From contig OZ231126.1 in assembly GCA_965153355.1 (NCBI GenBank), forward strand, positions 1,984,001 through 2,048,000: DNA of 64,000 nt, in the 5' to 3' direction. Positions 2,854 to 64,000 of the stretch are shown here, piece after piece. The stretch comes from Flaccisagitta enflata (taxonomy: Eukaryota). The translations under genes and the position numbers were made by a program. The notes under the pieces were generated by a model that saw only the letters and a list, made by a program, of their open reading frames with translations, ran no database searches and was not told the DNA's origin. Within the stretch, counting starts at the first letter, position 1. Each line of letters opens with the position of its first letter.

Positions 2854-3105
2854 GTAAAAGGAATTGTAATAGCAAGGCCATAAGGCAAAAGCAGTTAAGC
2901 TAAGTTTTTGCAGAAGAACGGAATGTCCGCTGGAACAATGTTTGCTGTCATTGGATCAAAAGTATTGTATTTTTTTTAATTTGATAAGGTTAAAATGGTG
3001 ATAATAAAAAATAAAAAACATATCTAGAATTGTAAGACGCTAGCCTTTAATATGACTATAGACTTGACATAATGTTTGTATTAAACAAAAATTGTTTATT
3101 CTAAA

Positions 3106-10202: not shown

Positions 10203-10325
10203 CACATCCGAATACATACCAACCGTCACGTCAAAGGATCGGCGAAAAATGTCAATGGATAATATCAAGTGGTACAGCTGGAATAAAACGACTTCATAGA
10301 TGCCACTTTGGAGACACTAGGGGTG
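10203..10325 (+). CDS. Probable internal exon; (A)HPNTYQPSRQRIGEKCQWIISSGTAGIKRLHRCHFGDTRG (faintly resembles the start of a CUB domain)
   Basis: Pyrimidine tract + ag at 10201-10202, donor g/gtacgt at 10326, 123 nt symmetric phase 1, in frame with both neighbours. Confidence 0.55.
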
Positions 10326-10425
10326 GTACGTAAAGACTATCGGTTCATCGGTTCATCGATCTCTAGGTCCGTCGAACATGCTCACGCTTTTCTGCACTTT
10401 GCTCAATTATATTTACTTCTCCCTG

Positions 10426-10546
<121 letters not shown>

Positions 10547-10554
10547 TTCTGTAG

Positions 10555-11000
10555 GTATGGTTCGTATGGTGAATGGGAAGATAGTACTCAAGCCACCACC
10601 AAGTAGCTCGACCTCTTGTTTCAACGGACGTCTCGAAGCGCGCACACCAGTCAGCACTTATCCTAAAGGAACTATAATTATAACAAACAAATGGGGGCAA
10701 GTCTGTGACGATGGGTGGGATGGACAACATGCAAGGGAGTTTCGGGCGTCAGGAGTTGCTTGCCGTGATCTAGGTTTTACACAGCCGATTAATAAAGGAT
10801 CCTACTTTGTGGCCTCCAAAATCACCCCAAGCCCCGTTCGTGGGGACGAATGGGTTCTAGATGACCTAGTTTGCGATCTAGAATCGTATAAAAGCGTTTT
10901 TCAGTGCAAGTTTACTGGTTATGAAAATTGTGGTGATCATGAACAACTCGGGATTGATTGCTCACAAAATCGAAATCCTACTAGTGGGGTTCTTCTATGA
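10555..11000 (+). CDS. Terminal exon encoding a scavenger receptor cysteine-rich (SRCR) domain
   Basis: Motifs [47 protein letters not shown] match the SRCR consensus; acceptor ttttctgtag after a (CT)n tract; stop TGA at 10998-11000. Confidence 0.88.
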
Positions 11001-19000: not shown

Positions 19001-20513
19001 CTAAACTGAGGTCTAAGAGGGCTGATGTAAGGCCTTATAATGCCAATTGGAAGCTTGAGAGGGCTTACTTGAAGTTTAATAGAGCTGGATGAAGGCTCGA
19101 AAGGTCAGAGGACTAAAATGAAGCCTGAGAGAAATAAATTGAGGCTCAGATAGCTGACTTGAGGCCTGAGGCCACGTTTGAGGCCAGGTTTGAGGCTTGA
19201 GAATTTAAATTTGAAGCCAGAAAAGCCTAATTTGAAACCTGAGAGGCCAGGTTTGAGGCCTGAGAAGTTGGATTTGAGGTCTGAGAGGCCAAATCTGAGG
19301 TCTCAGAGGCCAGATTTGAGGCCTGAGGGGCCTGATGGGGGGGAGGAACAAACGAACAAATGAACAAACAAACAAACAGAAGAACAAAAGTCCCCCTGTG
19401 TTCTACAGGACTTCGACCCCTTCGGGGCCGCTGCCCAAAAAGGAAAAAATTCCCCATATGTGTGAAAGCTTTGGTCATCAACCCCTTCGGGGCTGCTGCT
19501 CAAGAGGGGACCAACTGACAAACCAACCAACAGACCGCCAAAAGAGAATGAAAGAAAATTTTGGGAAATTTTGGTGGTAACGAGTCAAAAAACCTGATTA
19601 GTAAAGCACAATTTAACACTATTTAAATTTTAAACATAGTTTTATTGCTTTATCATAGAAAGTCAGAGATTTGATGATGCAACAGGATGAGTCTCAGGGA
19701 AGAAAATCAAAGGTGGGGGGGGAATAAATCAAAGGTCATGGAACTATATTCACCACTGAATGAACATGATAGAAAACGGTGATGTATATTTTTGAACATA
19801 CGCAATTTGTAGTCGCATGCTACACCACAACTCAATAACCCGCTATGTTGGTTGGTTGGTCTGCTGGCTGGTCTGATACCATTAGCTTTTTCAGCGTTGT
19901 TGGGCAAAGCTCCTGATAGAGTTGCTAGTTTAAAACTAAAGACTCAATTGCCTATCAATGTGTTCTCAGATTTGCAACATTTTTTGTCACATGCTACGCG
20001 ACTACACCCCGCTTTGTTGGTCTGTAGGTCCGTTTGTTGGTCCACTTGTTGGTCTGTCACCCTTTACTTTTTTTGTATTTTGCGGTCTCTGGCCTCACTG
20101 CTCCTGCCCAAATGATCAAGTGACTTCAATTACGGCCCCTACCCTCCCGCACATGACTTGGGTGGCCGTGTATCCACTCTTGTTTGGTTTAAATTACCAT
20201 GTTGCCTGCAGCAACATGCTGTAACTTGCAGCAACTTGCAGCAATTTTGAGTTTTGTTTTATTAATCAATCACCTGTTACATTCCATATCAGCAATCACA
20301 TAAAAAACACTTGGTATTGTTGAAAGTGATCAGGAATTAAAACTTTTTGTGGCGAAAAGCCGTAAAAATGCAGCAATTTTAATGGGAATTTCGATAATTC
20401 ACATAGATGAGAAAGATGCTGGATGAGGGCGATTTTTTTCAACATTTTTAAGTCCATCTGACGTTTCAGATTGTTGAGAGGGATGTTCCACCAGACATTG
20501 GTCGCCTACTGGG
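16034..20513. mobile_element. CMC/EnSpm-like non-autonomous element packed with nested insertions
   Basis: TIR cccagtaggcgaccaa...ttggtcgcctactggg, ~100 bp of degenerate terminal pairing, many TTGCTGCA/TGCAGCAA subterminal repeats. Confidence 0.6.
17226..18099. mobile_element. 874-bp palindromic MITE inserted into a HINE (17093-18116)
   Basis: Arms cagccggagacccta... / ...tagggtctccggctg; TAGTA duplicated at 17221-17225 and 18100-18104. Confidence 0.85.
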
Positions 20514-24475: not shown

Positions 24476-26241
24476 TGAGCGAGTTTAAATTCAATCGGAA
24501 ACCATCTTCAGGGTGCGTATCAAGGGTAAAAATGAGCTTTTTAGTTTTTTTTTATATTTCTCACTCAAAAATCGCGGCAATGACTTGAAATTTGGCAAGG
24601 ACATGCCCCAAGTCAGCATCTAAAAGCAAATAAAGCAAAAAAAAAGATTTTTCACCGATTTTAGTATGGGTTCACATACACCATGCATCCTGACGACCGC
24701 CAGGACGATTTTTGGATTACTGTAGGTTTCTTTTTAGTTTGGTACAGTCCACATATGCAGGAATCCACATCCAACCATAAAAAAAATTTCATCTGGCACT
24801 TTTGAAAAAAAATCACATTTTGTAAAAATGTGTTGCATATGCAATGCACATGTTGCATATGCGACATGTGTTGCATATGCAACGTATGTTGCATATGCGA
24901 AGTACAGGTGTTGCATATGCGACATATGTTGCATAGGTGAATTACCTTAGAGCTAAGTGGTCGAGCTTTGTGATGGTGGGATGGTAGGCAAGGGCTGTGT
25001 ATGGGAGCGGCGGGGTATAGTGGAGTAAGAATATGAATAAGTATTTTACAGGTTTTCTTCTTGGAATTCCCACTATCGACCCACCAGACCATCCCCCATT
25101 TTTTTGTTCCCTGAATTTGAATTCCTGTAGGTGGAGTACAATTGTAATGACTCTTTTAAGATAGAAATGTCTTTTATTTTTCTCCTAAGATGTCCATAAT
25201 GAGGATTCAGACTTTTTCCCCTCTTGATTTTTTTGAAGCATTGGGCAAAATCGTTTCTGTTTTGGGGTGGGCTGGGAAGATAGGAGAGTACTGAGTAGTT
25301 TATGATCTTCTTTCAAATTCAGTGTTCGAATAAACCCTACCACTCCACCCCACTGTTCCGCCCAAGCGGTGACCTTGCATCACTTGTTTATTGTTTAATG
25401 TTTATTCTATTGTCTTTCTGTCTGTCTGTCTCTGTGTGTCTCTCTCTTCTCTCTCTCTCTCTGTCTCTCTCTCTCTCTTTTGTATCACATAGCAACACAA
25501 CTACACAAGTATGTTGCATATGCAGCATATTTCGCATATGCAGCACATGCATTTTGCATAAGCAACATATGTCGCATATGCAACATATGTACTTCGCATA
25601 TGCAACATATGTTGCATATGCAACATATTTTCTTAATAGAAGATCTTTTTTCAAAAAGTGCCTGATGAAATATTTTTTAATGGTTGGGTCTTGATTCCTG
25701 CGTGTGAGGACTATACCAAACTTAAGAGAAACTTACAGTAATCCAAAAATCGACCTGGCGGTTCCCAGGATTCATGGTGCATAGTGAAATACTGTAAAAA
25801 TGAGGCTTTTTAGCCTTTTTTTCTTATTTCTCGCTCAAAAATGGAAAAAACGGCAAAAAAGGTCATTTTTAGTGTTTTACTACATGAATTCAAACTTAGC
25901 AACGTAAAAAATCTTTTTTTGATTGTTATTCATATAGACATTCATTAGAGGCAATTCCACACAATTTTTGACGACTGTATCCAGTTTTGTGGTAGCATCA
26001 TTCGAAAAAGGGCAAAAGGCTATTTTCACAGTATTTTACTGTATAAACCCATCCTAAAATTGGTGACAAATCTTTATTTGCTTTGTTTGCTTATAGATGC
26101 TCACTTAGGGCTTATCCTTGCCAAGTTTCAAGTCATTGTCACAATTTTTGAGCAAGAAATAAAAAAAAAGGTAAAAAAAGCTTATTTTTACCCTAGATAC
26201 ACACCCTGAAGATGGTTACCAATTGAATTCAAACTCGCTCA
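24476..26241. mobile_element. Fold-back element with internal GTTGCATATGC repeats on both arms
   Basis: tgagcgagtttaaattcaat...cttcagggtg versus caccctgaag...attgaattcaaactcgctca. Confidence 0.7.
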
Positions 26242-30098: not shown

Positions 30099-30784
30099 AA
30101 ACAAAGCCAAGTTATGGCCAATAAGTGCGCCTCGCTTGATTAAGAATTTGTGAATTAACGTTTTGAATGCATGAATGAATGAATGAATGAATGAAAGAAT
30201 GAATGAATGAATGAATAAATGAATGAATGAATGAATGAATGAATGAATGAAAAACTGAATGAAAATGAGTGTGGTAAGTAGGGATGTGGAAGCGATTGAC
30301 CGCTTCCATTTTGGAGGATGGGATAGCTACTAGTATTTGAACTGCAAAATGGAAGCGGAAGCGCAAGCGCAAGCGGTGGAAGCGGCACTAAAATCCACCG
30401 TTTCCACATCCCTAGTGGTAAGGCATGAGAGGTGATAGGAATGAAGAATAACGACAGAATTGACCGTTTTGAGCGTTTTGAACGTTTGCGTTACCGACCG
30501 ACAGCCAGACAGACCAACCGACAGAGTGAGACGGACATGACCTCTTATAGAAATGCGAGGACGCACTTAACAAGTACCCCGGGGGTACAACGATGCGTCC
30601 ACATGCTGCTTAGCTTGTTAAGAATGATGCAATATTGCATCAATTATGTAGAATGATGCAATGACCTATCTTTTTGTGTGATTTCCTTGTGTTTTTATCA
30701 TTCTCAACTCAATCACCACGGACCGACGGACGGACCGACGGACGGACAAAGCCTCTTATAGAGATGCGTGGACGCATCTAAAAA
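30099..30784 (-). mobile_element. Two adjacent HINEs (taagtgcg and tagatgcg subTIR families); relatives at 49177-49638 and 59963-60179
   Basis: aacaaagccaag...gcgaggacgcacttaa and aacaagtacccc...gatgcgtggacgcatctaaaaa. Confidence 0.7.
30279..30414. mobile_element. 136-bp hAT MITE
   Basis: TIR tagggatgtggaa/ttccacatcccta, 8-bp TSD gtggtaag. Confidence 0.85.
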
Positions 30785-30898
30785 TGAGCGTTTTCTTTAG
30801 CACAAAAACTCGCGCTCTTGACATACTTTTTTCAAAATAGATTTCTCCAAATCGATAATAGATACAAGGAAAGCAACTCTACTGCAAGTTCAATTTGG

Positions 30899-43425: not shown

Positions 43426-46400
43426 CTATATGAAAATTTTTTAAGCCCAAACTTTACCTACTTATTTTATTTAAAATTGACGTTGTGGACAAACTATTAA
43501 GGCTAGACGAATGAAATTTTCATACAAACAAGGCCAAGTAGGCCAATAGGTGCGACCTGTGGATTGTCGAACGAATGCGATACGACAGCAAGCAAGCTTG
43601 TAAAACGCTTGCCATTCATTGGGGGTCAAAATTCAACTTCTTTTTGACCAAGATCTGGCTTTTTCTAGTTGTTATATATGTTATTACAAGTAATACAGCG
43701 AAAAATTTGATACGAATTTGTACCTCAAACAAAAGTTATTGACGTTTTTTGAAAAAAAAAATGAAAAAAAATCTCGCTTCCTTCCATTCTTTTGACATCG
43801 ACAACACAAGGAGTTTTGTCTGTCCGTTCATCCATTTGCCCGTCTGTCTACACTCTTTTTTTTTTATAAGAACCTAGTTTATAAGAACGTCAAGGCTTCG
43901 AAAGGCCCCAAAATTATGAACATCTTAAGAACATACGAAGGCTTCAAATCTTTAGAAAAAAAGTTTGCCCGTAATGATATTTAAAGAATACTAAAAAAAA
44001 CACTTGAATTTTAGTATAATTAAGATGATATTTTATAATTTCTAAATAGATATCATGAAAGTATCCATTGACTTTAATGATTTACATTTGTTTTAACAGT
44101 ATTTGATCGAAATATATCTAGCATAATTGAGTAATAGTATATTGTAAGGTTTCCTATAGTTTATATAGTATAGTTTATATAGTATAGTTTATATCGTAAT
44201 TAAGAACGCTCTAAGAATGTTGAAGGCTTTATATGGCCTTGAAAATAAGAACATGAAGCCTTCGAAAAAAAAAGACGTTCTTATAAAAAAAAGAGTGTAT
44301 GCGTCCGTCAATGGGTCCGTCCATGTGTCCGTCCATACGTCCTTCCCTCAGTCCATTCATCTGTTTGAATTTTCAGAACCCACGAGTCCAAAAGTGCGAA
44401 AAGACGTGTGTGTGTGTGTGTGTGTGTGTGTTCGTGTGTGTGTGTGTGTGTGTGAACCGTACGTGGATAACTTGTTAGTTCTAGCTCTGCGTAAATTTAT
44501 CTTGTTTCATTTATACTTCTTTATTTCTTTTTCTCTGCCGCTATCCTGCTTCCTCACTCCAATTCCCAATCAAGCAAAGCAGGGCAAAGGGTAGCTCAAT
44601 CATGAGAACTAAGCCCCAGTCTCAAGGACCAAATCCCAGTCTTGAATGTAAATCCAAGCTTTAATGCCCAATTCATGGCAAAATTGCGGCTCAAATCACA
44701 GCCTTGAGGTTCAAATTCCAGCCATAGAACTCACCCCAGCCTCAAATCCCAGTATTTTCGCTTGAATCCTAGCCTCAAGGCTCAATTCTAAGCCTGGAGG
44801 CTAAAGTCTTAGCATTGGGACTGAAATCCAAGCCTAGAGCCTCCCAACTTACCAAGCATAGGTGATCCGGCTCTTCGGGACCGCTGCCCCTCTCACAGTC
44901 ACACATCCACAGAGTTATATATTCTTTTTGGGCAGCGGCCCCGGAGGGGCCGATGACCTATGATTCCACATAGGGCAATTTTCTCCGTTTTCCGTTTTCC
45001 GTACGTACACCCCCCCCTCCCCCAAGCCTCAAATAAAGCCTTTCAGACCCTAAATCAGGCCCCCCCAGACTCCAGATCAGGCTTTTCAGACCCCAATTTT
45101 GGCCTCTCAGACACAAATCAGGCCTCAGACCCCAAATCAGGCTTCTCAGACCCCAAATTAGACCCCTCAGACCCAAATCAGGCCTGTCAGACCCCAAACC
45201 ACGCCTCTCAGACCCAAAATCAGACCTTTCAGACCCAAGATCAGGCCTCTCAGCCCTTTAAACCAGCTTCTCAAACCGGAGAAAATTGTCCTACGTGGAA
45301 TCATAGGTCATCGGCTCCTCCGGGGCCGCTGCCCCTCTCATAATATAAATCCCACACACACTAACTTAGGGGCATCAGGTACCGCTGACCATGTAACGCT
45401 TTTGCGACTATTCTTCTATAAGGGCATCAGGTACCGCTGACCATCGAACGCTTTTGCGACTTTTTCCTTTGCCTAGATGCTTTTAAATTGATCGAGAACC
45501 ATAGTTAGGGTGACTATGAAGTTTCTGTATAAATGTATGGCAGAGACAAAATTTACGAAATAGAGATATTGGTTCCAATACAAATTAAATACAAATTAAA
45601 TACTCGCCCAGACGATGGCTCCCAAAAACAAGGCCAAGAAGGCCAATAGGTGCGACGGTGTGGATCATCGAACGAATGTGTTACCGACCAACCGACCAAC
45701 CAACGGACACAGCCAGTTATAGAGGTGCTTTGTCGCACCTAAAAATGAAGGTTGCGCCATGGCTCGGGGCATGGTAACGCCAAACTTCACGATTTAGCGA
45801 CATTTTTCTTTCTTTTTGTTTCTTTTCCGCTTTTCCACTCTTTGAACCTGTTTTTACTCGCCATTGTGTCTGTGTTTTTAATCGCGGACACGCGACTCTA
45901 CACCTTGCCGTGTCGGTAGGTTGGTCGCGCGGTCGGTCGTTTGGTCAGTCAGTCGGTCGGTCAGTTTTTGCATTTCTGCTCCTGCCCAACCGTCCGGGAC
46001 CACATTACCATGTATCGGGCCTTGTTTTTTTTCGCTTCTTGTTTCCTCCTTTCTTTCCTATCTTTCTTTTAAACATCACTACCCGTTTCTTGATCATTTT
46101 TCTCGTGAAGAATTGACGAAATTTACTGCCTATCTTTCCTCCTTCTGGGTAGCGACTCCGAAAGGTCTGATGCTTTCTTATAGAGTTGTACCCCGCTCTA
46201 ACGGACCCGCTTTTAAGGGAATTCCGCCTTAAACTGATATCAATTCTTGTCCTCTCAACCAGTTTTCTTTTTATTCTTATACTGGCTACAACAGAATTTT
46301 GCCTATAATCAATAAAATTTGTTAGTCTCTTGAAATCTGTTAGAGCGGGATTCCACTTTATAGGGAAATATGTCCTCCTCCCTCTTGATTCCCCTCAGAC

Positions 46401-50800: not shown

Positions 50801-52095
50801 GTAGCCAGATGCACGACAGTTGGACAACATCACCACTCATCTCCTTTGGATCCACAAAAACTATCCCGTTCAATTAAAAAACAAAACTTTCACCTCTCTG
50901 ACAGTGTTTTAAAGAAAGCTTATAAAAAAGTATCAATATTTTAGTATATCAGTAAGTGAAAAAGCCCAAAAGTTGTTGCTGTTATCAAATTATGCCACAA
51001 ACCACTTTAAACCCAGATCCTTTTAGTTGCGTGCTACACGACTCTACACCCCCTTTGTCTGTCCATCGGTTGGTCGGTTGGTGTCATTTTACTTTTTTTA
51101 TTTGTTTTATTCCTACTAACTCATTTTAAGTCAATTTGGTCATTTAAAGTCAAATGATATCATTTTAGGTCATTTGAGTAAATTAAATCATTTTACTTAC
51201 TTTCGTCATTTTATAGAATTTGGGTCAATCTAAGTCACTTTAGGTCAGTTGAATTCAATTTAAGTCATTCTAGGTCAATTTAAGTCAGTTTAAGTCATTT
51301 TAACTCATTTTATTCACTTAAGTCATTTTAGCATTTAAGGTCAATATAAGTCAGTTTAGGTCATTTCAAGTCAGTTTAGGTTATTTTAAGTCAGTTTAGG
51401 TCATTTCAAGTCAGTTCAGGTCATTTTAAGTCAGTTTAGGTCATTTTAAGTCATTCTAGGTCATTTCAAATCATATTTAGTCATATTATGTCAATTAGAT
51501 TCAATGAAAGTCTTTTAGTTATGTGGTTATGTAATTAATTATGTAAGTCTTGCACGCGACCTATAGGTGTTGGCTTTGTTCAAGATGATCAATGCCGGAT
51601 ACACGGCTACCCCAGTCGCGTGCGGGTAGGCAGGGGCCATATTTGAGGTCAGCCGAGCAATTGGGCAGGAGCAGTAAGGCCAAACTAGTCATCCAAGGAT
51701 CGCACATGGTCAGCAGTACCCGATGCCATGCTGGGGGTGATTCAGTGAAGTAGTGGAGTCAGACCGGGGCAGCGGCTCCAAAGGGCCGATGTCCTGTAGA
51801 ACACAGGGGAGAATTTCCAGACGTCCTGAGGGGGGTTTATTTCAGGCCTTAGATGACTGATTCAGGCCACTGAAGGCATATTTGAAGGCTGGAGGGCAGA
51901 ATTAAGGATTAGAGAGTAGATTTGAGTTTTGGAGGGCTAATTTGATGCTTGGAGGGGTAATTTGATGCTTGGAGGGCTAATTGAAGGTCTGGAGGGTATA
52001 TCTGAGGTCTTGAGGTCAAGTTTGAGGCGGGGGGGGGGCTTGTTTGAAGCCTGGAAGGCTGATTTGAGGCCTCAAAGGCTAAATTGAGGGCTGAG

Positions 52096-53145: not shown

Positions 53146-55942
53146 CGGACCCCAAATTAATCCTTTCAGACCCCAATTCAGGCCTCTAAGACTCCAAATC
53201 AGGCCTTTCAAACCCCAAATCAGGCCAGTCAGACCCTAATTCAGGCCTCTAAGATCCCAAATCAGGCCTTTTAGACCCAAAATTAAACCTTTCAGACCAA
53301 AATCAGGCCATTCGTGAACAGAAAATGGTGACCTAAGGGCCTTCAGATGGAGGAATTTCATTCATGAATAATGCATTATGTATCAAAATTGCATTTTTAA
53401 AAAAATTTTCACTTTTTACAAGTACTGTACTGTACTCGGTCTTAAAGTACTAAGTAGATGTGGCAAATTTTGGAGCTCCCCTATAGGGCATCGGGTACCA
53501 CTGACCATATAACGCTTTCGCGACTATTTCTTTTTTAGCTGCGTCCTCGCATCTCTATATTAGGCTGTGTCCGTTGGTAGGTCGGTTGGTAGGTTTGTTG
53601 GTTGGTGAATTATTCATTAAAGACATCAAAATCGAGCATTTTTTCAACAGAAAAATGGTTCTACCCCAGTAAAAGAAGCATACATCAAGTAATTCATTCA
53701 TTCAATCATTCATTCATTCACAAATGACATTCATTCATAAGAAAACTTTCATTAATAAAAAAACGTTCATTCAAAGAGGATGCATCGTTGGCCTACTTGG
53801 CCTTGTTTTTATTCAATATGCAATCACCAAAAACATGTTGTCCAACTTTATGTGATTAGAACTATTCAAAAATGAAAAACAGATATTGTACTTTATTTTT
53901 GATGAATCCCGAATTTTGGCTTTTCTTGCTGTGACAACCATACCGACCACTCTCTAGCTCATGAAGATATCGACAAAAGGGAGATTGGTAGATTTAACAA
54001 CATAGAATTGATAACAAATTTTTGGAATATATCAAATACTTTGTATTGCATCAAGGAATTCTCCAGGCATTTTAACTTATTCTTTAGTAAGAATGTATGA
54101 TCACTCCCTCCTTGAAAAAAATTTGACAAGAAATCTTCAATTTACCTGAAAAAAAAAACATTGTTACTCATACCATTTTTCAGGGGTGTATATTAGGGTG
54201 GTCATGAAATAGGGTCAAATTTCAAAAAAAGATATACTCTAGTTTTTTGCAACATTGTTAATCATACCATTTTTCAGGGGTGTATATTAGGGTGGTCATG
54301 AAATAGGGTCAAATTTCAAAAAAAGATATACTCTAGTTTTTTGCATAAATGTACCAAAAAAGAAGGTTTTCCCACAAGCAGAGGTCTGAGTTTGAAGATT
54401 AAACCATGTCGGCAAAACAATGGGCTTCCTATGGCAAAAAAAAAAGTCCCCACAGTAAGCCTATGGTTTTGCCGACAAGGTTTTTTGTTTGATTACACAC
54501 CCCAACTTGTGAGAAATCCCTCTTTTATTGGATATTTGTGCCTAAGTATATCAATATATGAAATTTGACCAATTTCCCGACCACCCTAGTGTATATAACT
54601 AAGTCGCTTTTGATTCCCTTTTGATTGGGCCCCCCCCCCCCCCCGCCTTTGATTTTCGTCTTTCCGACACATCGCGTTATGTTTTAGAATCTTTAATTTT
54701 TCTCTCTTTAAAACAATAAAACAGAGCAAAAAAGGTTTAAACAATGTTTTTATCATTTGGTACTGCCATAAGTTTGATTTTCCCCAAATTTTCTTTTTTT
54801 CTCTTTTTTCTTCCTCATCTCAACTCAATAACATACGGGCCTGCCATTTTTCAATCAGGGCATCATTCTAATTTTGCTTGTCCAAAAAAAGTGGCTTAAA
54901 AAGTCATGTAGCACGCGACTAAGATTTTTCTATGAAAAGTAGTCACTAGTCAGTGTGACATGTTAAACTGGGAAAAAATTGTGAATCTGTAAGTCATAAT
55001 CTATTTCATATAGTTGGATTTTAACCGATTATGTAGCTTTACAGCTGGCTGTAATTCAACTATCTTGGAAATAGAAATCCTTACTTGTGGAGGATGAGTT
55101 CATTTATTGACATAAATATGAATGCATATCAATTGAAAATCCATTAACAATTAGGGTGAGCCCCTTTTGATTGAACCACAGCCGTTATTTATCGGGGAAG
55201 CATTTTGTAGAGCGTCTTGAGGAACTCTGGAGTGATGGCGCTCCAGACCATTCTTGCCATTTTCTTGATTCATTTGTTTTGCTACGTTTGACTTAAAGCT
55301 CCAAATAGACTCCACAAATCATAAAAAAATAGGTGACATAAATGAAACCCTTTGAATTTGCAAGCAGTCTACGCAAACCGCATCTGTCTAGCTCAACTCA
55401 TCCAGAAGGTATCTAAAAAAGAGCGAAGTGAAATTGTTTTAAGATTATGTAGAAATGGCGATAGCTAAATCGAAAGATTTCATTCAAAGTTGAAAAACTT
55501 TTGAAGGCATCGCGTCGAGTTAGAAAGATGCAGTTTGCGTAGATCGCTTGCTAATTTGAAGGGCTTTGATTCTGTACCGATTTTTTAAAGATCGGGCGCA
55601 TTTATTCAGCGATATTTGTTAAAACGGGAGTAGAGATTTCTTTTTCCAAGATAGTAACAACCAGTTGTTGTACTCAACATTTTGATTATCACATGTTGGT
55701 TGGATCAAAGTCAACGGAGTGAGTTATCAACCTAGTGTTTTCTTAACTGACAAGGAGGATGCTATTTACAGCTGGGCGGAACCCTTGAAGCTAATGGTCT
55801 AAAATTTGAAATAGATTCAGAATCTCACTAATTTTCATTAAGAGTTCTCATTCTTTTATGAGTTTTTTCTTGTCGATATATTCTTGAGAAAGATGGTGTG
55901 TTTTTGCTTGTCGATATACCTATGGCTATTAGCTAGATAGTA

Positions 55943-58588
55943 CAGTAGATGTCGTCTAGACTTGGAAGTACGGGGGATTTCATTAAGAGAAGACAAATAA
56001 ACTTAATAGACCAATATTTGGGATATAAACTAATAAAAGGATGCTCTATTGTTTATGAGTGTTGGTTGCCATGGAAACACATTTCCATGTATACACGCTA
56101 AAGCATCAATATTTTGAGAAATTTTTTGAGAAAACAATGTTTAATATAGAATTTGCTAAAACTTTCCCACAAAATGTTCTGTCAGAGTGTTGCTCATTTG
56201 GCGGTTGCACAATGGTTGAATTGAAATCAGCGATTTTGGAGCAAAAAATGCAAGGATTCTCATGAAGTTTTCTCTTTCATATCTCTTACAATGAGGAGGG
56301 GAGAACAAAAATGGAGTTAAATTCCGTTAGAGGGAGTTAAAATAAGGGGGTAGGGAAAAAAAAGTAAAAAAAGATTTATTTTCCCCTTGTTATTGCAAGA
56401 AAAAGTGACAATGCCCCCATCATTCCTCATCAAAAAAGAATTTACACCATTGCGTAGAGGAGAAACAGACTATTCTAAATATATAAGCATATGTGCATAA
56501 ACTTGCCGGTTTGGGATTAAAAGCAGATGAAAAATCATTCTGGCAGCCATCACCTTCATCGACAATGTCCAGTTGAATCCCGATCTAGTCATCAACAGAA
56601 ATGGAAAAATGAGGAAGAGGAAGAGGATCAACAATTGGCAAGCTGAGGATGATGAAAAAAGGAAATCTTTAGATATAAAGCAGAGCACCCTGAATATTTA
56701 GAGGAGAGTCAGTGGCGTTATGCCATGATGCTCTCTTTTTATTAAGAAGTCTGGGGTTCAAGCCTCACAAAGAAGCTTTTTTTTGAAAGTGAATCAGGGT
56801 TTAAATGTAAGATAACTGTTATGCTTAACTCATTTAACCCATGGTTAGCCTGATAGGTTTATCTCAGATACCACAATTTAACAAAATAGAAAAGAATTCT
56901 CACAAGCTCATGAAAAAATAAAACTCAATGGTTTGCCTTCTTTGGGCAGCGGCCCCAAAGGGGCCGATGTCCTATGCTTTCACATATGGAGACATTTTTC
57001 TTTCTCCTTCTCCTCCTGCTTCTCTTATGTCTCCCCCTATCAAGACCCAAATTTCAGCATGGAGGCTTATACAGGGTGTACCAACTCAGTTGTAACATAA
57101 AGAATCGATGTATCTCTGCTTCTAAAAAAGGTATAATGATTCTGAAAAAAGTTCTAAAGAGCTTTTGAAAACCGATTTTTGCTTGATAGGAGAAAAATAA
57201 TGGGAAGGTATAAACAGCAGAGGAAAAAAGGCTTGGAAGTATATGCATTTTTGCTATAATTTTGCTATTTTCTATTGATTTCCAATATCAATTTCTCTTT
57301 GTTGGACTTTTATTTCTAAAATTTTTGACAAACATGTCAAGTTTGACTTTAAAAAAAACATATTTTATGTAATTAAAGAGAGTTCACAGAAAAACTCAGA
57401 TTTTTTTAAGTAGAATACTGTGATTTTTGCCAAAATCATGCTTATGAAAATCGAGGTTTTTTTAAAAACATGGTTTTGAAGGAAAGAAATGCAAAAACTT
57501 CACTATTTTGAAGATGTTTGTTATTGGGGCCAAAAACTAAAGCTAAAATCTTTGATTTAAGACCAATCTGAGGTCTGTAGCTCAATTTGTTTAGAAATGA
57601 GAGCCTTTTAAAGAAACAGTATCCATGGGCAACGACGGCCAAATTTGTATTATGAGAAATAGCTGCTTCACTTTAGGTTGTGAATGTGTAAGTTTTTTTA
57701 CAGGATTGATCTATTTCCTTTGCATGAGTAAAAATCGTTTTTTAAGAGCTTTTTGGAACTTTTTTCAGAATAAGATTATCTTCTCTAGAAGCTGAGATAC
57801 ATCGATTCTTTATGTTACAACTGAGTTGGTACACCCTGTATCCCAGCCTTGAGGCCCAAATCCCAGCCCCAAAGCTCAATTCCCAGGCTTGAGGCCCAAG
57901 ACCTAGCTTCAAGGCTCAAGGTTAAAGACTCAAATCAAAACCTTGAATTTAAATCCCAGCCAAGAAGTCCAAGAAGTCCTGATGAAATGCTAGATAGAGA
58001 AAAAAAATCTTTGAGGGGTTTGAACCCCTACCTCTGAATAAAGCCCAACAGTCGTACCACTGAACCAAATCACAATCTTTCATTCCAGTAATTTTTTTTC
58101 ATCATGCTCTTAAGTATTAGCAGAAGCCTTTCCTAAGTTGTTCTCATGTTTTTCATTACAACCTCTTGCAATCATTGCAATCTGATTAGAGTGCCCTCCT
58201 CTGCCATATACATGCATAACAGAAATTCAGAAGGTATATTCTCAACAGGGACTCCAATCAACCACTGTGGGTTGTTAGGGAGCATCACATGTCTATCACA
58301 CATAGTTAGGCTCCCTAGCAACAGCAAATCGAGAAATATTCTTACAGAACATACTGTGGGAAAGTTGTAGCAAATTTTATCGCAAACAATGTTCCCTCAA
58401 AAAATCTTCTCAAAATATTGATACTTTAGCCTGAATACATAGAAATATGTTTCCATGGGAACCAACACCCATGGGCAATAAAGCATCGTTTTAATAATCT
58501 ATATTCCAAATATCAGTCCCTTAATTAAATATATTTGTTTTCCTGTAATGAATTCCCCTGTATTTCCAAGTCTACACGACAACTACTG
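55943..58588. mobile_element. pogo/Tc1-like element inserted ~40 nt downstream of the lectin 2 stop codon
   Basis: TIR cagtagatgtcgtctagacttggaa / ttccaagtctacacgacaactactg; empty site gatagtatgtgtgacgc in copy 1 at ~34101. Confidence 0.8.
57072..57838. mobile_element. Tc1/mariner MITE nested in a HINE nested in the 55943 element
   Basis: Perfect TIR cagggtgtaccaactcagttgtaacataaagaatcgatgtatctc, TA TSD. Confidence 0.85.
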
Positions 58589-58627
58589 TTTGTCTGACGC
58601 TTTCATAGTTCTGAAATGTGGCTATAT

Positions 58628-58947
58628 TCATTTACATGCTATCCATGTAATCCACATGTAATCCGGTACATTGTCGCGGGACCAAACCTTAACGCCAATT
58701 TCTCCATGGGTTGTATTGAACGCACCAGTTCCAATTAACCAGCTCCAGCTTGGTTTTGAAGAATCAGATTTTGTATCAAGAAAGTCGAAAGCTTTGAGAG
58801 CGGCAATAATGGAAGGTCTGTGTGGGAAAGTAATTCCAAAGGAAATATCTATCCGGAAATAGTCAATCGGGGGCATTGTACTGGAGTCTTTAAGTTTTGC
58901 TGCAATTTCGAGTTGTTCATCACCCGTCACACATGATGTTTTTCCGG
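58628..58947 (-). CDS. Terminal exon, probable H-type lectin domain (lectin gene copy 2)
   Basis: Acceptor ttgctttcag at the same position and phase as copy 1; 47/70 aa identical to copy 1 from FGITF to WIACK*. Confidence 0.75.
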
Positions 58948-59662
58948 CTGAAAGCAATGAAGAGAACATACATGTTTATTTGTTAAATTTTGAATTTGTA
59001 AATATGATCAAAGTTTGCACGATCACAATGGCCAACATGAGATCTGAGTGAAAGTTCGATTAGCAAACTCGTATAGTGTTACTGCCAGCCAGCCAACCGT
59101 CTTGGATCAAGAAATAGTTAGTGAATCGAAGGAGAAGATTCCTTTGCGAAGGATGAAATGCTGTTCCCAGCGAAGAGTTAGGAGTGATGGACTCACATAC
59201 ATTCATGACTACCAGTAGGTGGCCGGCCAGGGTAAAAATGACCTATAGGTCAATGACGTATGAAAAATGACGGTTTGTTGTAGTAATCAGGTAACCAGGT
59301 AACCAGGAATTTTTAATCAGGTAGAATCATCTCCAATCAGTCCCATGTATATTGTTACCATCGGTAAGAGTATCACTGTCACAGTAACACTTAATTAAAC
59401 CACGAAAAGCATTTTCCTTGTTGGTCCAGTAAGATGAAATTTTACTGAAGTGTCTAGATACCTTTGGACTATCATAATCAAAATTTCATACTGCTATACT
59501 TGGTTGACTATCAGTCTTGAGGTACTTTTTTAAAAGTATAAATCTAACTGTTGCTGATGTAGCCCGATCCATAGCCCAAAGTACAACAGAACAACAAACT
59601 GTGACGTCAAGAGTTAGCGCTGGCTAATAGAAAATCATCAAAAATTCTTTTCTTCTACCCAC

Positions 59663-59788
59663 CTGCCACGTAGCAGTATCCCTGACCATAAGCCGGTACA
59701 ATACAACACGCTTCATCTCCAAAGCAGTCGGCATCCGTTTCACACGAATTACTGTCTCGGATTTGTTTACGCGGGGACGAACAAACTC
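59663..59788 (-). CDS. WAP/four-disulfide-core-like exon with 6 Cys: (G)VCSSPRKQIRDSNSCETDADCFGDEACCIVPAYGQGYCYVA
   Basis: Acceptor ttttcttgcttttaag, donor cag/gtgggt, 126 nt symmetric phase 1; C..D.DC.G...CC core is characteristic of WAP domains. Confidence 0.68.
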
Positions 59789-61677
59789 CTTAAAAGCAAG
59801 AAAAGTTTTCTTAGAGACGTATGAATTGAGTTGGGGGGGGGGGGGGAATGTCTTAAATGCTTTGTAAAAGGGGGGGGGGATTTGGTAGTGGCAAAAAGAG
59901 AAATAAGTAAATTAGATTTGATCCTTAGAACCTTTGATAACTACCAGGGCACTGTGCTTTTAAAACAAGTACCCCGGGGGTACAACGATGCGTCCACATG
60001 CGGCTTAGCTTGTTAAGAATGATGCAATATTGCATCAACCTTGTAGAATGATGCAATAATCTGAGATATTTCCAAGATTCTATGCATTTTCATCATTCTC
60101 AACTCGATCACCACGGACCAACCAACCAACTGACGGACGGACAAAGCCTCTTATAGAGATGCGTGGACGCATCTAAAAATTCTTAGTGGAAAGTCTTATT
60201 GGGAAAAAAATCGAAAAACGTTTTTCGATTTTTTGAGTTTCGCTTAGGAATTAATTTTTTCCATTTTCGCTTGAGATGTTTTGAGGAAGTTGGGTCACGA
60301 CTAGGCTCGCCCGAGGCTGGGGTTGAAATTGGTACAGGGTGAAAGAGGGCACTTTTTTACACCAGTCGTGGCATGGGGGATAGTCTGGGATAGACCGCCA
60401 GACAGAGGAAGTCTAGGCGACGATATATCGCTGAATTAGTCTGGAAATGAAACTTTCTTTATATTTCCACGAATTCAAAGGTCTCATTTGGCCAAAACAA
60501 ACGATCCCTTTTTGCTTCCGGCTCTGAAGCCTTCGCGATCAATGAATTCTGAATTAAATTCATTCTCTTTGAACTAAAAACCTCGTCCTGACGTCCGCTC
60601 CTGACCGGCTTTTTAGCTAGAAATCAGAGATTTCATACATATCCTACTAGCTAGAAATTAGCTCCGGATAGGATTTATTATGACTTGGTGACCCGCGGTG
60701 GTAAAACCTACCTACGTACTGACCACCTACCTAGACTCAGTCTGTACATACATACATACATACAGACAAGAGAGGGGGAGACAGACCCCCTCTCGAAAAC
60801 CCTAGCCCATTTATCTTGTCACGTAAAACGTTCCTTCGCCTCGAAAACAGAAAGCCTCAAGTTCATAAATTCAAGTTCGGCGTTCGCTCAAGAAAAAAAA
60901 ACACAAATCAGAACGAAAACTGATGAAAGACAAATGTTCGAACGATGATGACTAACGAAATGAACGTACGTACGTACAATTACACAGACATGAGTACTCA
61001 CTAAGACTTTATGTCCGTTCGACGGTCAGGGTGTCACTGTAAAGTGGAAAAATGAGCGAGCATGATAAACAAACGATGCATATTAGAATAAGCTGTCCGT
61101 ATGATAGAGGAGAGACGGACAGACACTTAGCCGAAAGTGACGGACGGACCGAACATCGGTCCTACGCACGCACCGTTGACCATTTAAGCCTTCTAAGAAA
61201 TTCGGAAGGAAAGGCCCGGGCGCAAAAACGTACTTCGAACCCTAAAACATTCGAATTCGAGACAAAGAAATGAAGAGGAAGGGAGAAAATAGGAGGAGGG
61301 GGGAGGCTGAGTGCGCTTTTCCCGGGTCCCGGGCATTGAAATCGGCGCATTCACTCTCTCTCTCAGCCTCAGACGACGATCTCTTCCTCAAGATAAAACT
61401 TTGTCCGTCTTGTGCGTATTACGATGATTAAAATCACAAAAAAAAACTATGACGCTTTTATAGATTATATTTCATAGTCAATCATCGTGATACGCAAAAA
61501 TAAGTTATGATCATGTTAGCTAAACTATTACATTATAAGAACGCTTATACACACATTTTATATGATATAAAAATTCTAAGAGAAAGTTTTCTTGACATAA
61601 AATGACGTTCTTATAAGGTAAAGTGCGGCCATATGAAGTGCTCAAGTAAATGCACACGCGAAAAGAAAATGCAGAAA

Positions 61678-63976
61678 CCCGCGAAGCGGAGAATTGAATG
61701 TCATTTGACATTTCTTAAACCTTTTTTTCTCTTTCTTTCAACCCGCTAAGCGGAGTATTCGGTTTTCCCGGAGGGGAAATAATTATTTTGTGTCGGTTTC
61801 CATGAAGGAAATAATTAGCATTTTCCACAAAAACAATAAGCATGCACACGCAATTACACAGAGCACTACTAGAAATAAGCCCGCTCAGCGGAGACACATA
61901 TTCACACAAACACGCACAAAAGCAAACTTTGTCGCACTCAATAAATGGAAATACTTTTCTGTTACCCGCGATGCGGAGGTCAACTATTACAAACAATGCA
62001 CTCAATTCCACTTTTGCTTTTCTCGCTTATTTAACCTTGATTCCCGCGAAGCGGAGAAAAACATACGATGTGATTCTGATTTCCGAATGATGCTAGATTT
62101 TTTTTCCTTTCACTCATTGCCTATTTAATTACTATTATTGAATGATACCCGATCCCGCGCAGCGGAGAAAATTGGCATATGGCAAAAAATGATAATAGTG
62201 ATGAATGAAATAGCCATGAATTAAAACCCGCACAGCGGAGAAAAATTGAAAAATAATCAGAATTTTAATTTTTATTCTTTTTTTTGTTTCTCGAATAAAA
62301 ATAAGATAGATTCATTCAATCTAACCAGTGATGTGACTCAAATATTCATTAAAATCAAACAAATGAAATAGCCTAACAAAATGAATTATGCATATCATAA
62401 ATGCCAAATCCATAATTTTAGAATATTTTATTTTAATAACATTATTCAAGCTAAAATAAGACAAGATTTTGTATATCAAAAATCCTGCAAAATACTGCAT
62501 ATTTAGCTGATGCCTACCCTTGTTTAAATGTCTAGACGGATGCCTAATTATTATTTCTGTTTTCATACCCGCTCGGCGGAGGTAGAATTATTGATTCTGT
62601 TTTCATACCCGCTCGGCGGAGGTAGAATTATTGATTCTGTTTTCATACCCGCTCGGCGGAGGAAAATGCATTTTTGATTCTGTTTTCATACCCGCCCAGC
62701 GGAGAAAAATGCATATTGTTTACTTCGGAAAATGTCGGATTAAGTTAGATATAACCTTTCCCACAAAGTGGAGGCATTAATAGGCACCTTACCCACAAGG
62801 TGGAGGCATTAATAGGTACCCTTCCCACAAGGTGGAGAACTTAATAGTAACTATTCCCACAAGGTGGAGACATTAATATTTATTTAGCAACTGCCCATTA
62901 TTGTACCCGCTATAGCGGAGGATTAAAACCATTAAAGCATGGGCGGATGCCCTAAACATTGCCCGCTAAGCGGAGGAAATTAGCTACTGGTAGCTTCGGC
63001 AGTATGCGCAAAAATTCCCCTAAGAAAGGGAGAGGTTCAATACCTTATGTTGACTAGGCTGAGGCCTAAGAATAGCCCGCTAGGCGGAGATAAAATACAT
63101 ATCCTTAGCTTCGGCAGAATGCGCAAATTTTTTGCTATGCTATAAAAAAAAAAAAAAAAAAAAAACTTTGCAACAATGTTAGGATCAATTAAAAATAATA
63201 GCGCATTATTAAAAATGATATGCATAATTCATCTTACCATAAACAGTATCATAAATTCTGAATAATATTACATAAACCCGTTGAACGGAGAAAACATAAT
63301 TGTGAGATTCAATTTCCTTTCTTAAGCCAAGAGCACCCAAGCTCACTCATGATTGAAGTTTTTTATTTTTAAAGAAAATCCTTAGTCATCAGAAGATACA
63401 GAAATGAAATCATAGAATAGCTACCAGCAAAATATCATTAAATTGTAATCAATACTAAAATCCCCGTAACGGATAAATGATTAATTATGAAAAATATTCA
63501 ATACTGGGCTAACTAATGGTTATTCAGTATGAATTGACTAAATCCCGCGAAGCGGAGAGTAAATGTTATGCCCATTACTATCTTTGACAGTATAGGAAAT
63601 TATTTTAATAACTCAAAATAACCATTAGTTGGCAGCTAGTAGAAAATTTTTTAAATGCTCAAACCCCAACAGGGAAGATATTGATACCCGCTAAGCGGAG
63701 GTAAAATCCATGATACACGTAGCATAAATTTAATATCAACACCCGCAAAGCGGAGAAATAATTTATGAGCATGAATCATGATTTTGATACTAATACCCGC
63801 GAAGCGGAGAAATATTCATGATGCATGAAACATGATACTTAATATTGATACCCGCGAAGCGGAGAGAAGATCATGATGCACGTAGCATAATACTTGATAC
63901 TGAAACCCGCAGAGCGGAGAGAAAAGAAATTAGTAATGCATAAAATGATACTTAATGCTAATACCCGCAAGCGGAG
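61678..63976 (+). repeat. Array of ~27 co-oriented CCCGC-N3-GCGGAG mini-palindromes, runs off the window end
   Basis: Copies at 61678, 61742, 61880, 61965, 62043, 62154, 62227, 62568, 62608, 62648, 62691, 62760, 62792, 62824, 62856, 62906, 62962, 63076, 63277, 63463, 63544, 63687, 63742, 63796, 63851, 63906, 63964. Confidence 0.9.
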
Positions 63977-64000
63977 ATAAATTCATGATACTTAATACTG

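What the first reader, a model, noticed from the sequence alone, without database searches (positions are those of the whole stretch)
61678..63976. Unexplained array of ~27 co-oriented triloop mini-hairpins (CCCGC-NNN-GCGGAG) in divergent AT-rich spacers
Seen: a 14-bp GC/CpG-rich motif recurs about 27 times on one strand over 2.3 kb. The 4-bp stem and trailing AG stay fixed, the 3-nt loop varies freely (GAA, TAA, TCA, GAT, GCA, ACA, TCG, AAG...), and many spacers are unrelated. Known: the commonest form contains GCGAAGC, a known exceptionally stable DNA mini-hairpin. Inference: the motif is maintained while its surroundings turn over, as expected for an iterated protein-binding or ssDNA/RNA-structure platform (transposase subterminal sites, a viral hr-like origin, or a structured lncRNA). 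No element named elsewhere in this window explains it.
Basis: partly seen in the sequence, partly recalled or inferred. Interest (0 to 1): 0.78.

Follow-up and report, generated by a model that had tools for sequence, protein, structure and literature searches.

The report
Conserved mini-hairpin box in repeat array
A 14-letter GC-rich hairpin-forming word is repeated 27 times on one strand of an AT-rich, non-coding, multi-copy repeat of a marine eukaryote, and is kept intact while the DNA between the copies has drifted apart, so it is probably a docking site used by the repeat or by chromatin rather than a gene.

Summary
C-CCGC-N3-GCGG-AG occurs 19 times exactly and 27 times with variants, all on the + strand at 61678-63976 and nowhere else in 64 kb; shuffles give 0. 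The array reaches the window end.

The box is constrained. In the array, 21 copies are perfect and none has one or three mismatches. All five two-mismatch copies are compensatory stem changes. Pairing is 92 of 92 cells. In the 55-bp sub-family, 11 of 11 box columns are invariant against 9 of 49 others (p = 5e-7). Most spacers are unrelated.

New here: the region appears repeated about 10-30 times in the genome, and the 32-bp sub-array far more. It has no coding capacity and no poly(A) RNA. A foldback-type element with internally repetitive arms lies in the same window.

Best reading: the internal minisatellite complex of a dispersed, probably transposon-derived repeat, with the box as an iterated, structure-specific protein docking site. 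A centromere or heterochromatin box is the main rival. The lncRNA and viral-hr readings have no support. The extra-stable GCGAAGC form is not the conserved feature (6 of 27).

Interest is moderate: a new variant of a known kind.

The parts
61678..63976 (+). Array of 27 co-oriented boxes C-CCGC-N(2-5)-GCGG-AG. Start-to-start spacing is 32-410 bp. The spacers are 28% GC.
   Evidence: No copy lies on the - strand or elsewhere in the window. 54 of the array's 78 CpGs lie in the boxes.
62546..62704 (+). 40-bp tandem sub-array, 3.9 copies, each unit carrying one box (loops TCG x3, CCA).
   Evidence: TRF, 91% matches; self-blastn.
62753..62878 (+). 32-bp tandem sub-array, 3.9 copies, carrying the compensated box CCCAC-AAR-GTGGAG. 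This unit appears to be amplified elsewhere as a high-copy satellite.
   Evidence: TRF. The summed contig word depth of DNA run X1 is 46,379 in bin 62676-62942, against 704-2,134 in the other array bins and 66-76 for single-copy contigs.
62951..63127 (+). Two related units (62951-63012 and 63065-63127, 78% identical), each with a box, flanking the divergent box CCCCT-AAGAA-AGGGAG at 63017-63032.
   Evidence: downstream flanks, z = 13.6.
63684..64000 (+). 55-bp tandem sub-array, at least 5.5 copies, cut by the window end. Units are about 75% alike and the box is invariant.
   Evidence: TRF, alignment A1, Fisher test.
60540..61677 (.). Non-array left flank that seems co-amplified with the array. 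It may be the outer part of the same repeat unit.
   Evidence: X1 summed word depth is 1,480-3,573 in bins 60540-61607, against 73-92 in the two lowest of the four bins at 58671-59738. No ORF in it has a Pfam hit.
61410..61621 (.). Two short inverted repeats just upstream of the first box: 61410-61429 with 61480-61499 (20 nt, 90%), and 61528-61543 with 61606-61621 (16 nt, 94%).
   Evidence: the repeat finder. Their role is unknown.

Best explanation
The region is an old, strand-polarised minisatellite complex. It forms the internal, non-coding part of a repeat that appears to be present in roughly 10-30 copies in this marine eukaryote's genome. The repeat is most likely transposon-derived, of the kind whose arms or centre are internally repetitive (Foldback, Galileo or Tetris type, or Helitron-borne arrays).

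Its units have diverged beyond recognition or been re-amplified locally as 32-, 40- and 55-bp sub-arrays. One 14-nt word is held constant throughout: a 4-bp stem (CCGC/GCGG), a 3-nt loop ending in a purine, and three unpaired flanking bases (5' C, 3' AG).

Shown here: the array is real and non-random; it lies on one strand only; the box is conserved far above the spacers; the stem changes only by compensation; the region appears multi-copy; it has no coding capacity and no poly(A) RNA signal.

Inferred: the box is an iterated docking site read as a small hairpin with asymmetric flanks, when the DNA is single-stranded or unwound during replication or transposition. Sub-arrays of box-bearing units can then escape and expand into satellite DNA, as the 32-bp unit seems to have done.
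For: Non-randomness and polarity: 19 exact and 27 total copies, all on the + strand; 0 in shuffles.

Constraint: a fuzzy scan that did not require complementarity found, inside the array, 21 perfect copies, 0 with one mismatch and 0 with three (the rest of the window has 47 with three, 0.76 per kb). The five genuine two-mismatch copies are all compensatory: G-C to A-T in four copies of one block, and C-G to T-A once.

Pairing: on the 24 triloop copies (23 distinct rows), 92 of 92 cells pair, 2 of 4 pairs have double-sided changes and none is one-sided. For per cent paired and for the covariation score, 0 of 500 shuffles reach the observed value. Slid controls pair 25-58%.

Box against spacer: in the 55-bp family, 11 of 11 box columns are invariant against 9 of 49 others, p = 4.9e-7. 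Spacers are mostly unrelated. Spacers are CpG-depleted (observed/expected 0.64), yet the boxes hold 54 of the array's 78 CpGs.

Asymmetric invariant flanks: C and AG in 27 of 27, a purine after the box in 26 of 27.

Multi-copy: X1 contigs over 63457-64000 have word depth 955 and 1,115 and differ from the window by 4 and 8 letters. Three exact single-copy contigs at 58552-59846 have depth 66-76. The bins from 60540 to 64000 read 704-3,573, and the bin with the 32-bp block reads 46,379.

No genes: 144 ORFs scanned against Pfam gave no transposase, Rep or viral domain, and there is no Rfam family.

Precedent in the same window: a foldback-type element at about 24517-26200 has long inverted arms that hold 18-20-bp palindrome-core tandem repeats.

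Literature precedent: tandem repeats in transposon arms as secondary transposase-binding sites (Galileo, PMC3573991, passages); internal repeats of a foldback element seeding satellite DNA (Tetris, PMC4079207, abstract).
Against: No transposase, terminal inverted repeat, target-site duplication or mirror array was found. There is no - strand copy of the box in the 61.6 kb upstream, and the sequence beyond 64000 cannot be read.

An array of at least 2.3 kb with 27 sites is much longer than the usual subterminal binding-site regions.

The copy number rests on summed contig word depths, which the tool itself warns are not copy numbers and may include other organisms. Tandem, segmental and dispersed amplification cannot be told apart.

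Only two, arguably three, independent compensatory events exist, since four of the five cells come from one tandem block.

The hairpin is weak by nearest-neighbour energies (-3.5 kcal/mol as DNA; 3 to 37 of 200 shuffles fold as well for the canonical forms). It could not extrude from relaxed duplex DNA.

The complete absence of singly mutated boxes among 27 redundant sites is hard to explain by purifying selection on each site alone.
Confidence: 0.4

Rival explanations
1. Host chromatin box. The array belongs to a library of short satellites (32-, 40- and 55-bp units) that share a GC-rich dyad box. A centromere or heterochromatin component recognises the box, or the box favours non-B DNA, as proposed for CenH3-associated repeats in Meloidogyne and for CENP-B-box satellites.
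For: A GC-rich dyad box is conserved among otherwise very divergent short monomers, in mosaic arrays, in an AT-rich setting. This is the same anatomy as the 19-bp, about 80% GC, dyad-forming box in 45-84-bp monomers of Meloidogyne (PMC8097292, passages). One box-bearing unit appears to be highly amplified. No poly(A) transcription was seen.
Against: The singleton units with unrelated spacers appear to be copied together as one unit of more than 3 kb, along with 1.1 kb of non-array flank. That looks more like a dispersed element than a satellite domain. No long homogeneous array lies in the window. There are no chromatin data.
Confidence: 0.2
2. No function. The box is a mutational by-product. 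A small GC-rich quasi-palindrome stalls replication, seeds slippage duplications, and is kept symmetric by hairpin-templated correction or GC-biased conversion. The apparent conservation would then be homogenisation, not selection.
For: Ongoing local tandem duplication in three sub-arrays. Faint residual similarity among some spacers suggests one ancestral unit. Boxes are either perfect or compensated, with none singly mutated, which fits a correcting mechanism. The window is full of other minisatellites.
Against: Templated correction explains the symmetric stem but not the invariant asymmetric flanks (C and AG in 27 of 27), nor the purine bias at loop position 3 and after the box. Conversion tracts are not expected to stop at the edges of a 14-nt word while the adjoining spacers stay about 75% alike. 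The boxes hold 54 of the array's 78 CpGs although window CpG is depleted (observed/expected 0.74, array spacers 0.64).
Confidence: 0.15
3. RNA-level element. Either the array is a structured non-coding RNA with iterated protein-binding hairpins, or it is a cluster of tiny independent small-RNA units, each headed by the box as promoter or processing signal, analogous to motif-dependent piRNA clusters of nematodes (that analogy is recalled, not checked here).
For: Strand polarity and compensatory pairing fit a single-stranded reading. The motif is followed by an A/G-rich tract. Two contigs of a marine metatranscriptome run overlap the region at 61469-61755 and 63748-63877.
Against: Poly(A) RNA run X13 gives depth 0 in 8 of the 9 array bins and 0.07 in one. 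This is a weak negative: only about 6% of the run was read, and no expressed single-copy control lay in the stretch. The metatranscriptome contigs also cover other silent repeats, and the tool warns that DNA may be present. No Rfam family was found. No conserved position occurs at a fixed distance downstream of the box.
Confidence: 0.08
4. Viral hr-like origin or enhancer of an integrated large DNA virus, or an array of Helitron 3' terminator hairpins.
For: Only general likeness: iterated palindromes, and hairpins as recognition sites of HUH enzymes (PMC10288648, passages; PMC8268682, passages).
Against: No viral, Rep or helicase domain in the 144 ORFs scanned. No conserved CTRR-like word, or any conserved base, at +2 to +15 after the box. 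The sequences upstream of the boxes are unrelated, unlike repeated 3' ends of one element.
Confidence: 0.03

Closest known systems
Internally repetitive arms of Foldback-type DNA transposons (Drosophila Foldback, Galileo, Tetris)
   Same: Non-coding, multi-copy DNA with co-oriented short tandem repeats within one arm. The repeats are proposed as secondary transposase-binding sites (PMC3573991). Internal repeats escape to form satellite arrays (PMC4079207, abstract). A foldback-type element lies in this same window.
   Different: No mirror arm, termini or transposase were seen. The repeat units here are mostly unrelated apart from a 14-nt box, whereas Tetris and Galileo repeats are whole units of about 210-220 bp. 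The array is longer (at least 2.3 kb, 27 sites).
CenH3-associated tandem repeats sharing a 19-bp box in Meloidogyne (PMC8097292)
   Same: A GC-rich, dyad-forming box is conserved among extremely divergent short monomers. The arrays are mosaic and short and sit in an AT-rich genome. The predicted hairpin is only a few kcal/mol (compared).
   Different: The box here is 14 nt and its loop is variable. The compensatory stem changes seen here were not in the passages I read. No chromatin data exist for this organism. I did not see the 19-bp sequence, so the two boxes were not compared.
Helitron/Helentron non-autonomous elements carrying central satellite arrays (oysters, PMC8268682)
   Same: Dispersed non-coding elements with a microsatellite and a short internal tandem array. 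A hairpin acts as the recognition signal of a rolling-circle enzyme.
   Different: The box is not followed by a conserved terminal word. There are 27 boxes rather than one terminal hairpin. No Rep/helicase was found.
Extraordinarily stable DNA mini-hairpin d(GCGNAGC) (PMC13037366)
   Same: 6 of 27 boxes contain GC-GNA-GC (5 GAA, 1 GCA). Such hairpins occur at single-strand replication and transcription start sites of phages.
   Different: The stability depends on a sheared G-A pair in the loop. 21 of 27 boxes lack it, so this is not the conserved property.
CRISPR arrays whose repeat contains the same 14-mer
   Same: The pattern scan for two boxes 26-56 nt apart retrieved arrays with CCCGC-N3-GCGGAG in every repeat (L001, L013, L121).
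   Different: Those arrays have 28-37-nt fully conserved repeats, regular spacing of 69-75 nt (one gap of 145), an identical loop in every copy and GC of 0.50-0.55. Here the spacing is 32-410 nt, the loop varies and only 14 nt are shared. The overlap is chance.

Membership tests
Extra-stable DNA mini-hairpin GCGNAGC | Loop of type G-N-A between G-C pairs (sheared G-A pair) | tested here: not met
   6 of 27 boxes have a GNA loop. The requirement is taken from PMC13037366 (passages).
Foldback / Galileo / Tetris-type transposon arm | Second arm in inverted orientation (mirror array) | tested here: inconclusive
   No - strand box anywhere in bases 1-64000. The array is cut at 64000, so a downstream mirror cannot be seen.
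Foldback / Galileo / Tetris-type transposon arm | Internal short tandem repeats, co-oriented within an arm | tested here: met
   Sub-arrays of 40, 32 and 55 bp, with all 27 boxes on the + strand.
Foldback / Galileo / Tetris-type transposon arm | Dispersed multi-copy element with defined termini and target-site duplication | tested here: inconclusive
   Word depth is about 10-30 times the single-copy level over 60540-64000. Dispersal, termini and duplications cannot be read without the genome.
Helitron / Helentron | Hairpin a fixed short distance before a conserved 3' terminal word (recalled: CTRR) | tested here: not met
   No conserved base at +2 to +15 after the box in 20 instances.
Helitron / Helentron | Rep/helicase gene in autonomous copies | tested here: not met
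   No such Pfam domain in 144 of the 195 ORFs of 70 aa or more in the window. An autonomous copy could lie elsewhere in the genome.
Centromeric box-bearing satellites (Meloidogyne 19-bp box, CENP-B box) | Box conserved among divergent monomers | tested here: met
   11 of 11 box columns invariant against 9 of 49 others in the 55-bp family. The box is shared by the 32-, 40- and 55-bp units and by the singletons.
Centromeric box-bearing satellites (Meloidogyne 19-bp box, CENP-B box) | Association with CenH3 or CENP-B, and centromeric location | not testable with these tools
   No chromatin or cytological data are available.
Baculovirus-type hr | Lies in a viral genome among viral genes | tested here: not met
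   No viral domain in the ORFs scanned. The only domain hit above its Pfam cutoff outside a simple repeat is an SRCR exon at 10287-10997.
CRISPR array | Regular repeat-spacer period with a fully conserved repeat of 28 nt or more | tested here: not met
   Spacing is 32-410 nt and only 14 nt are shared. The host is a eukaryote, since a poly(A) RNA library exists for the organism.
Known RNA families (Rfam 15) | Match at the gathering score | tested here: not met
   0 matches in the whole window.

The most novel reading that the evidence does not exclude
The box is the whole functional unit of an ultra-short, strand-specific element or 'writing' system. A single-strand DNA enzyme (HUH-type or similar) would recognise the 4-bp hairpin with its asymmetric flanks (5' C, 3' AG) on unwound DNA. 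It would then add or copy box-plus-spacer units one at a time. That would explain three things together: perfect boxes next to unrelated spacers, strict co-orientation, and the absence of singly mutated boxes. It would also seed new satellites such as the 32-bp unit. This would be a eukaryotic nuclear counterpart of mobile GC-rich hairpin elements, or of hairpin-guided bacterial systems (that comparison is recalled, not checked here).
Probability: 0.07. Interest if true: 0.85.

Novelty: new variant of a known kind. Interest (0 to 1): 0.42.

Why it matters
Short conserved boxes inside otherwise fast-evolving repeats are among the few handles on how repeats are recognised, whether by transposases, centromere proteins or replication enzymes. 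This array gives an unusually clean case. Perfect or compensated stems sit in 27 sites amid unrelated AT-rich spacers, which argues that the box is read as a structure and not only as a sequence. One box-bearing unit also seems to have expanded into a satellite. If the reader protein were found, it would link a defined DNA hairpin to repeat amplification in a marine animal-like genome. If the box instead marks centromeres, it would be a second case of the Meloidogyne-type arrangement. As it stands it is a well-supported cis-element of unknown partner in ordinary repetitive DNA.

Tried and rejected
(1) Own genome: none is held, so I could not do a genome-wide census, find copy boundaries or read the sequence beyond 64000.

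(2) Public collections. I looked at the 9 loci that were lowest in GC or richest in boxes. They are regular tandem or CRISPR-type arrays with GC of 0.40 or more, unrelated to this array. Two further viral scans gave 0 loci and 3 single chance hits.

(3) Earlier findings of this scan: nothing for this genome or for look-alike sequence. A word search returned one unrelated phage promoter-box finding, which I did not use.

(4) Literature string searches for a 12-letter core of the commonest box (GAA loop) and its reverse complement gave 1 and 2 papers. They are unrelated by title, and I saw only the listing. The exact word was therefore not found in print in that library in any relevant context.

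(5) Replitron paper passages: no matching terminal structure.

(6) The protein atlas search on the SRCR exon gave no usable hit.

(7) Telomere-type repeats: none of 8 tested motifs occurs in the window. This does not exclude a subtelomeric location.

(8) Second conserved word in the spacers: no 7-mer other than box parts and sub-array words is enriched, and no flank position is conserved except a purine at +1.

(9) Metatranscriptome run X9 and metagenome run X3 overlap parts of the array. They show neither transcription nor habitat with any confidence.

(10) Hairpin energy alone does not distinguish the boxes well from shuffles, so the case rests on covariation and not on stability.
Full report
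WHAT IS THERE

The pattern CCCGCNNNGCGGAG occurs 19 times. All copies are on the + strand between 61678 and 63919. There are none elsewhere in the 64-kb window and none in 100 dinucleotide-preserving shuffles.

A looser rule asked only for CCC, a 2-nt stem extension, a 2-5-nt loop, the complementary 2 nt and GGA[G/T]. It gave 27 copies at 61678-63976, one chance-like hit at 38916, and two - strand hits far from the array.

One search lists the 27 copies:
- 21 have arms CCCGC/GCGGAG.
- 4 have CCCAC/GTGGAG, all in one 32-bp tandem block.
- 1 has CCCGT/ACGGAG.
- 1 has CCCCT/AGGGAG, with a 5-nt loop.
- Loops are 3 nt in 24 copies and 2, 4 or 5 nt in one each.

The 5' C and the 3' AG are present in 27 of 27 copies. 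The base after the box is a purine in 26 of 27, and the base before it is A or T in 24 of 27. The third loop base is a purine in 23 of the 24 triloops (my count on the rows). No other flank position is conserved (20 instances), and no other 7-mer is enriched apart from words of the sub-arrays. The array reaches the end of the window.

IS THE BOX HELD CONSTANT?

Tandem Repeats Finder and self-blastn show three local sub-arrays: 40 bp x 3.9 at 62546-62704, 32 bp x 3.9 at 62753-62878, and 55 bp x 5.5 at 63684-63989. There is also one related pair, 62951-63012 with 63065-63127. Everything else is unalike.

I ran a Smith-Waterman test with shuffles on the 40-nt flanks of 18 representative copies (153 pairs on each side). 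The mean z was 0.23 upstream and 0.25 downstream, with four pairs on each side above z = 4. Some of these trace to the known blocks. A few are faint residual similarities that fit one ancestral unit.

Among the six 55-bp units, which are clearly homologous (mean column identity 75%), all 11 fixed box columns are invariant against 9 of the 49 other columns (Fisher p = 4.9e-7).

The spacers are 28% GC with CpG observed/expected of 0.64. The whole window has 0.74. The boxes hold 54 of the array's 78 CpGs.

IS IT A PAIRED STRUCTURE?

A mismatch-tolerant scan that did not ask for complementarity found the following in the array: 21 perfect copies, none with one mismatch, and seven hits with two. 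Two of the seven are shifted readings of perfect copies. The other five are all compensated double changes.

There are no three-mismatch copies in the array, against 47 (0.76 per kb) in the rest of the + strand.

I then counted pairs on the 24 triloop copies. I left out the three copies with 2-, 4- and 5-nt loops, and the 24 rows collapse to 23 distinct rows.
- 92 of 92 cells pair.
- Two of the four pairs show changes on both sides (G-C to A-T in 4 cells, C-G to T-A in 1 cell).
- None shows a one-sided change.
- 0 of 500 shuffles reach the observed per cent paired or covariation score, and 15 of 500 reach the observed number of pairs with a double change.
- Partners slid by 1-3 columns pair only 25-58%.

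The caveats are plain. Four of the five compensated cells are one event, so there are two independent events, or three if the 5-nt-loop copy at 63017 is accepted. The hairpin is also weak by nearest-neighbour rules. Its energy is -3.5 kcal/mol as DNA for the canonical form, and 3 to 37 of 200 shuffles fold as well. It could matter only on single-stranded or unwound nucleic acid.

The 'exceptionally stable' GCGAAGC form needs a sheared G-A pair across the loop (PMC13037366, passages). Only 6 of 27 boxes have a G-N-A loop, so that property is not what is conserved.

CONTEXT

The window looks eukaryotic and gene-poor.
- Of the 195 stop-to-stop ORFs of 70 aa or more, I scanned 144 against Pfam (20, 124). 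I left out 51 that overlap others, mostly in simple repeats.
- The only informative hit is an SRCR exon at 10287-10997 (E = 6.7e-9). The other hits were low-complexity matches, and I saw no transposase, Rep, helicase, reverse transcriptase or viral domain.
- Rfam gives nothing at gathering scores.
- No genome is held for the window.

Run search found the stretch in two DNA runs of a coded 'organism A' (shares of words 0.55 and 0.49). Smaller shares occur in marine metagenomes.

I laid four runs on 56001-64000.
- Three contigs of DNA run X1 match 58552-59846 exactly, with word depth 66-76.
- X1 contigs over 63457-63697 and 63668-64000 have depth 955 and 1,115 and differ from the window by 4 and 8 letters.
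- The bins from 60540 to 64000 sum to 704-3,573.
- The bin holding the 32-bp CCCAC block sums to 46,379.

With the tool's warning that such depths are not copy numbers, this suggests three things. The array and at least 1.1 kb to its left are repeated some 10-30 times at about 97-98% identity. The window's copy is not the commonest variant. The 32-bp unit has been amplified much further elsewhere.

RNA evidence is thin.
- The poly(A) RNA run (12.2 million reads, about 6% of the run) gives depth 0 in 8 of the 9 array bins and 0.07 in one.
- This is a weak negative, because no expressed single-copy control lay in the stretch. Nearly all laid RNA reads were partial matches to a dispersed repeat at 60006-60272.
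- Two metatranscriptome contigs overlap the array, but that run also covers other silent repeats and may contain DNA.

The window holds many other minisatellites. At about 24517-26200 there is a foldback-type element whose long inverted arms contain 18-20-bp tandem repeats with a palindromic core.

INTERPRETATION

The safest statement is that this is an old minisatellite complex inside a multi-copy, non-coding repeat. A 14-nt box in it is kept as a small stem with asymmetric unpaired flanks, while the rest turns over.

I think the most likely mechanism (0.4) is that the repeat is transposon-derived and the box is an iterated docking site for the protein that moves or amplifies it, read when the DNA is unwound. 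The evidence behind this is:
- the region appears to be copied as a unit together with non-array flank;
- the window contains a foldback element with repetitive arms;
- tandem repeats in transposon arms are proposed secondary transposase-binding sites (Galileo, PMC3573991, passages);
- a foldback element's internal repeats are known to seed satellites (Tetris, PMC4079207, abstract), which parallels the amplified 32-bp unit.

Against this reading, no termini, mirror arm or transposase are in view, and 27 sites over 2.3 kb is unusually many.

The main rival (0.2) is a host chromatin box of the Meloidogyne kind. There, a GC-rich dyad-forming 19-bp box is shared by very divergent 45-84-bp CenH3-associated monomers in mosaic arrays within an AT-rich genome (PMC8097292, passages).

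A neutral, mutational origin (0.15) would explain symmetric stems and the lack of singly mutated boxes. It would not explain the invariant asymmetric flanks, or the sharp edge of conservation at the box.

RNA-level readings (0.08) and the viral-hr or Helitron-terminator readings (0.03) have little or no support. No base is conserved after the box, the upstream sequences are unrelated, and no viral or Rep genes were found.

STILL UNEXPLAINED

Among 27 seemingly redundant sites, not one carries a single uncompensated change. Either each site is individually under strong selection, or some process rewrites or corrects the box. That gap is what keeps the bolder reading alive, a strand-specific hairpin-guided copying or insertion system, at low probability.

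SEARCHES THAT LED NOWHERE

- Pattern scans of metagenome and viral collections returned only prokaryote-type regular arrays, including CRISPR-like ones that happen to contain the same 14-mer.
- String searches of the paper library for a 12-letter core of the commonest box and its reverse complement gave three unrelated papers, of which I saw only the listing.
- Earlier notes of this scan held nothing for this genome.
- No telomere-type repeat occurs in the window.

VERDICT

The array belongs to ordinary repetitive DNA but carries an unusually clean, structure-constrained cis-element whose partner is unknown. It is a new variant of a known kind, of moderate interest.

Noticed in passing
window 24517-26200: Foldback-type element with long inverted arms (for example 24676-24785 with 25673-25782, 85% complementary, and 24538-24643 with 26073-26178, 83%). 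The inner parts of the arms are 18-20-bp tandem repeats with a palindromic core. No ORF with a Pfam hit lies between the arms.
   Followed up: partly
window 59964-60180, with copies at 30569-30785 (88%) and shorter ones near 11200, 32950, 39400, 42850, 43400, 47700, 49600, 53550: Dispersed short repeat ending in a GACG/GACC-type microsatellite. It is the only part of 56001-64000 with heavy poly(A) RNA read pile-up (about 800 per strand class at 60006-60272), and nearly all of those reads are partial matches from other copies.
   Followed up: partly
window 1404-1513, 19180-19336, 45030-45253, 53148-53313, 57841-57919: Recurrent 20-21-bp minisatellites, several sharing AAATCAGGCC-like words, in both orientations. 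Bins 56802-57068 and 57603-57869 reach summed word depths near one million in DNA run X1, so a very abundant repeat family lies there.
   Followed up: no
window 2117-2332 and 51117-51496: Degenerate 10/20-bp arrays of TGACTTNAAA-type units, in opposite orientations at the two loci.
   Followed up: no
window 10287-10997 (+): Open frame with a scavenger receptor cysteine-rich (SRCR) domain (Pfam E = 6.7e-9). It is the only recognisable protein domain among the ORFs scanned, and it points to an animal-like host.
   Followed up: no
window 61410-61499 and 61528-61621: Two short inverted repeats (20 nt at 90% and 16 nt at 94%) immediately upstream of the first box. They may be a boundary feature of the array, or chance in AT-rich DNA.
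   Followed up: no
window 62241-62567: The longest box-free gap in the array (341 bp start to start) is very AT-rich and has the lowest word depth of the array bins (704 in 62142-62408). It may be a later insertion, or a stretch where boxes were lost.
   Followed up: no
L001, L121, L124, L013 (metagenome and viral contigs): CRISPR-like arrays whose repeat contains the same 14-mer with an identical loop in every copy and spacing of 69-75 nt, apart from one 145-nt gap in L013. This is a chance overlap with the box and unrelated to the window.
   Followed up: yes
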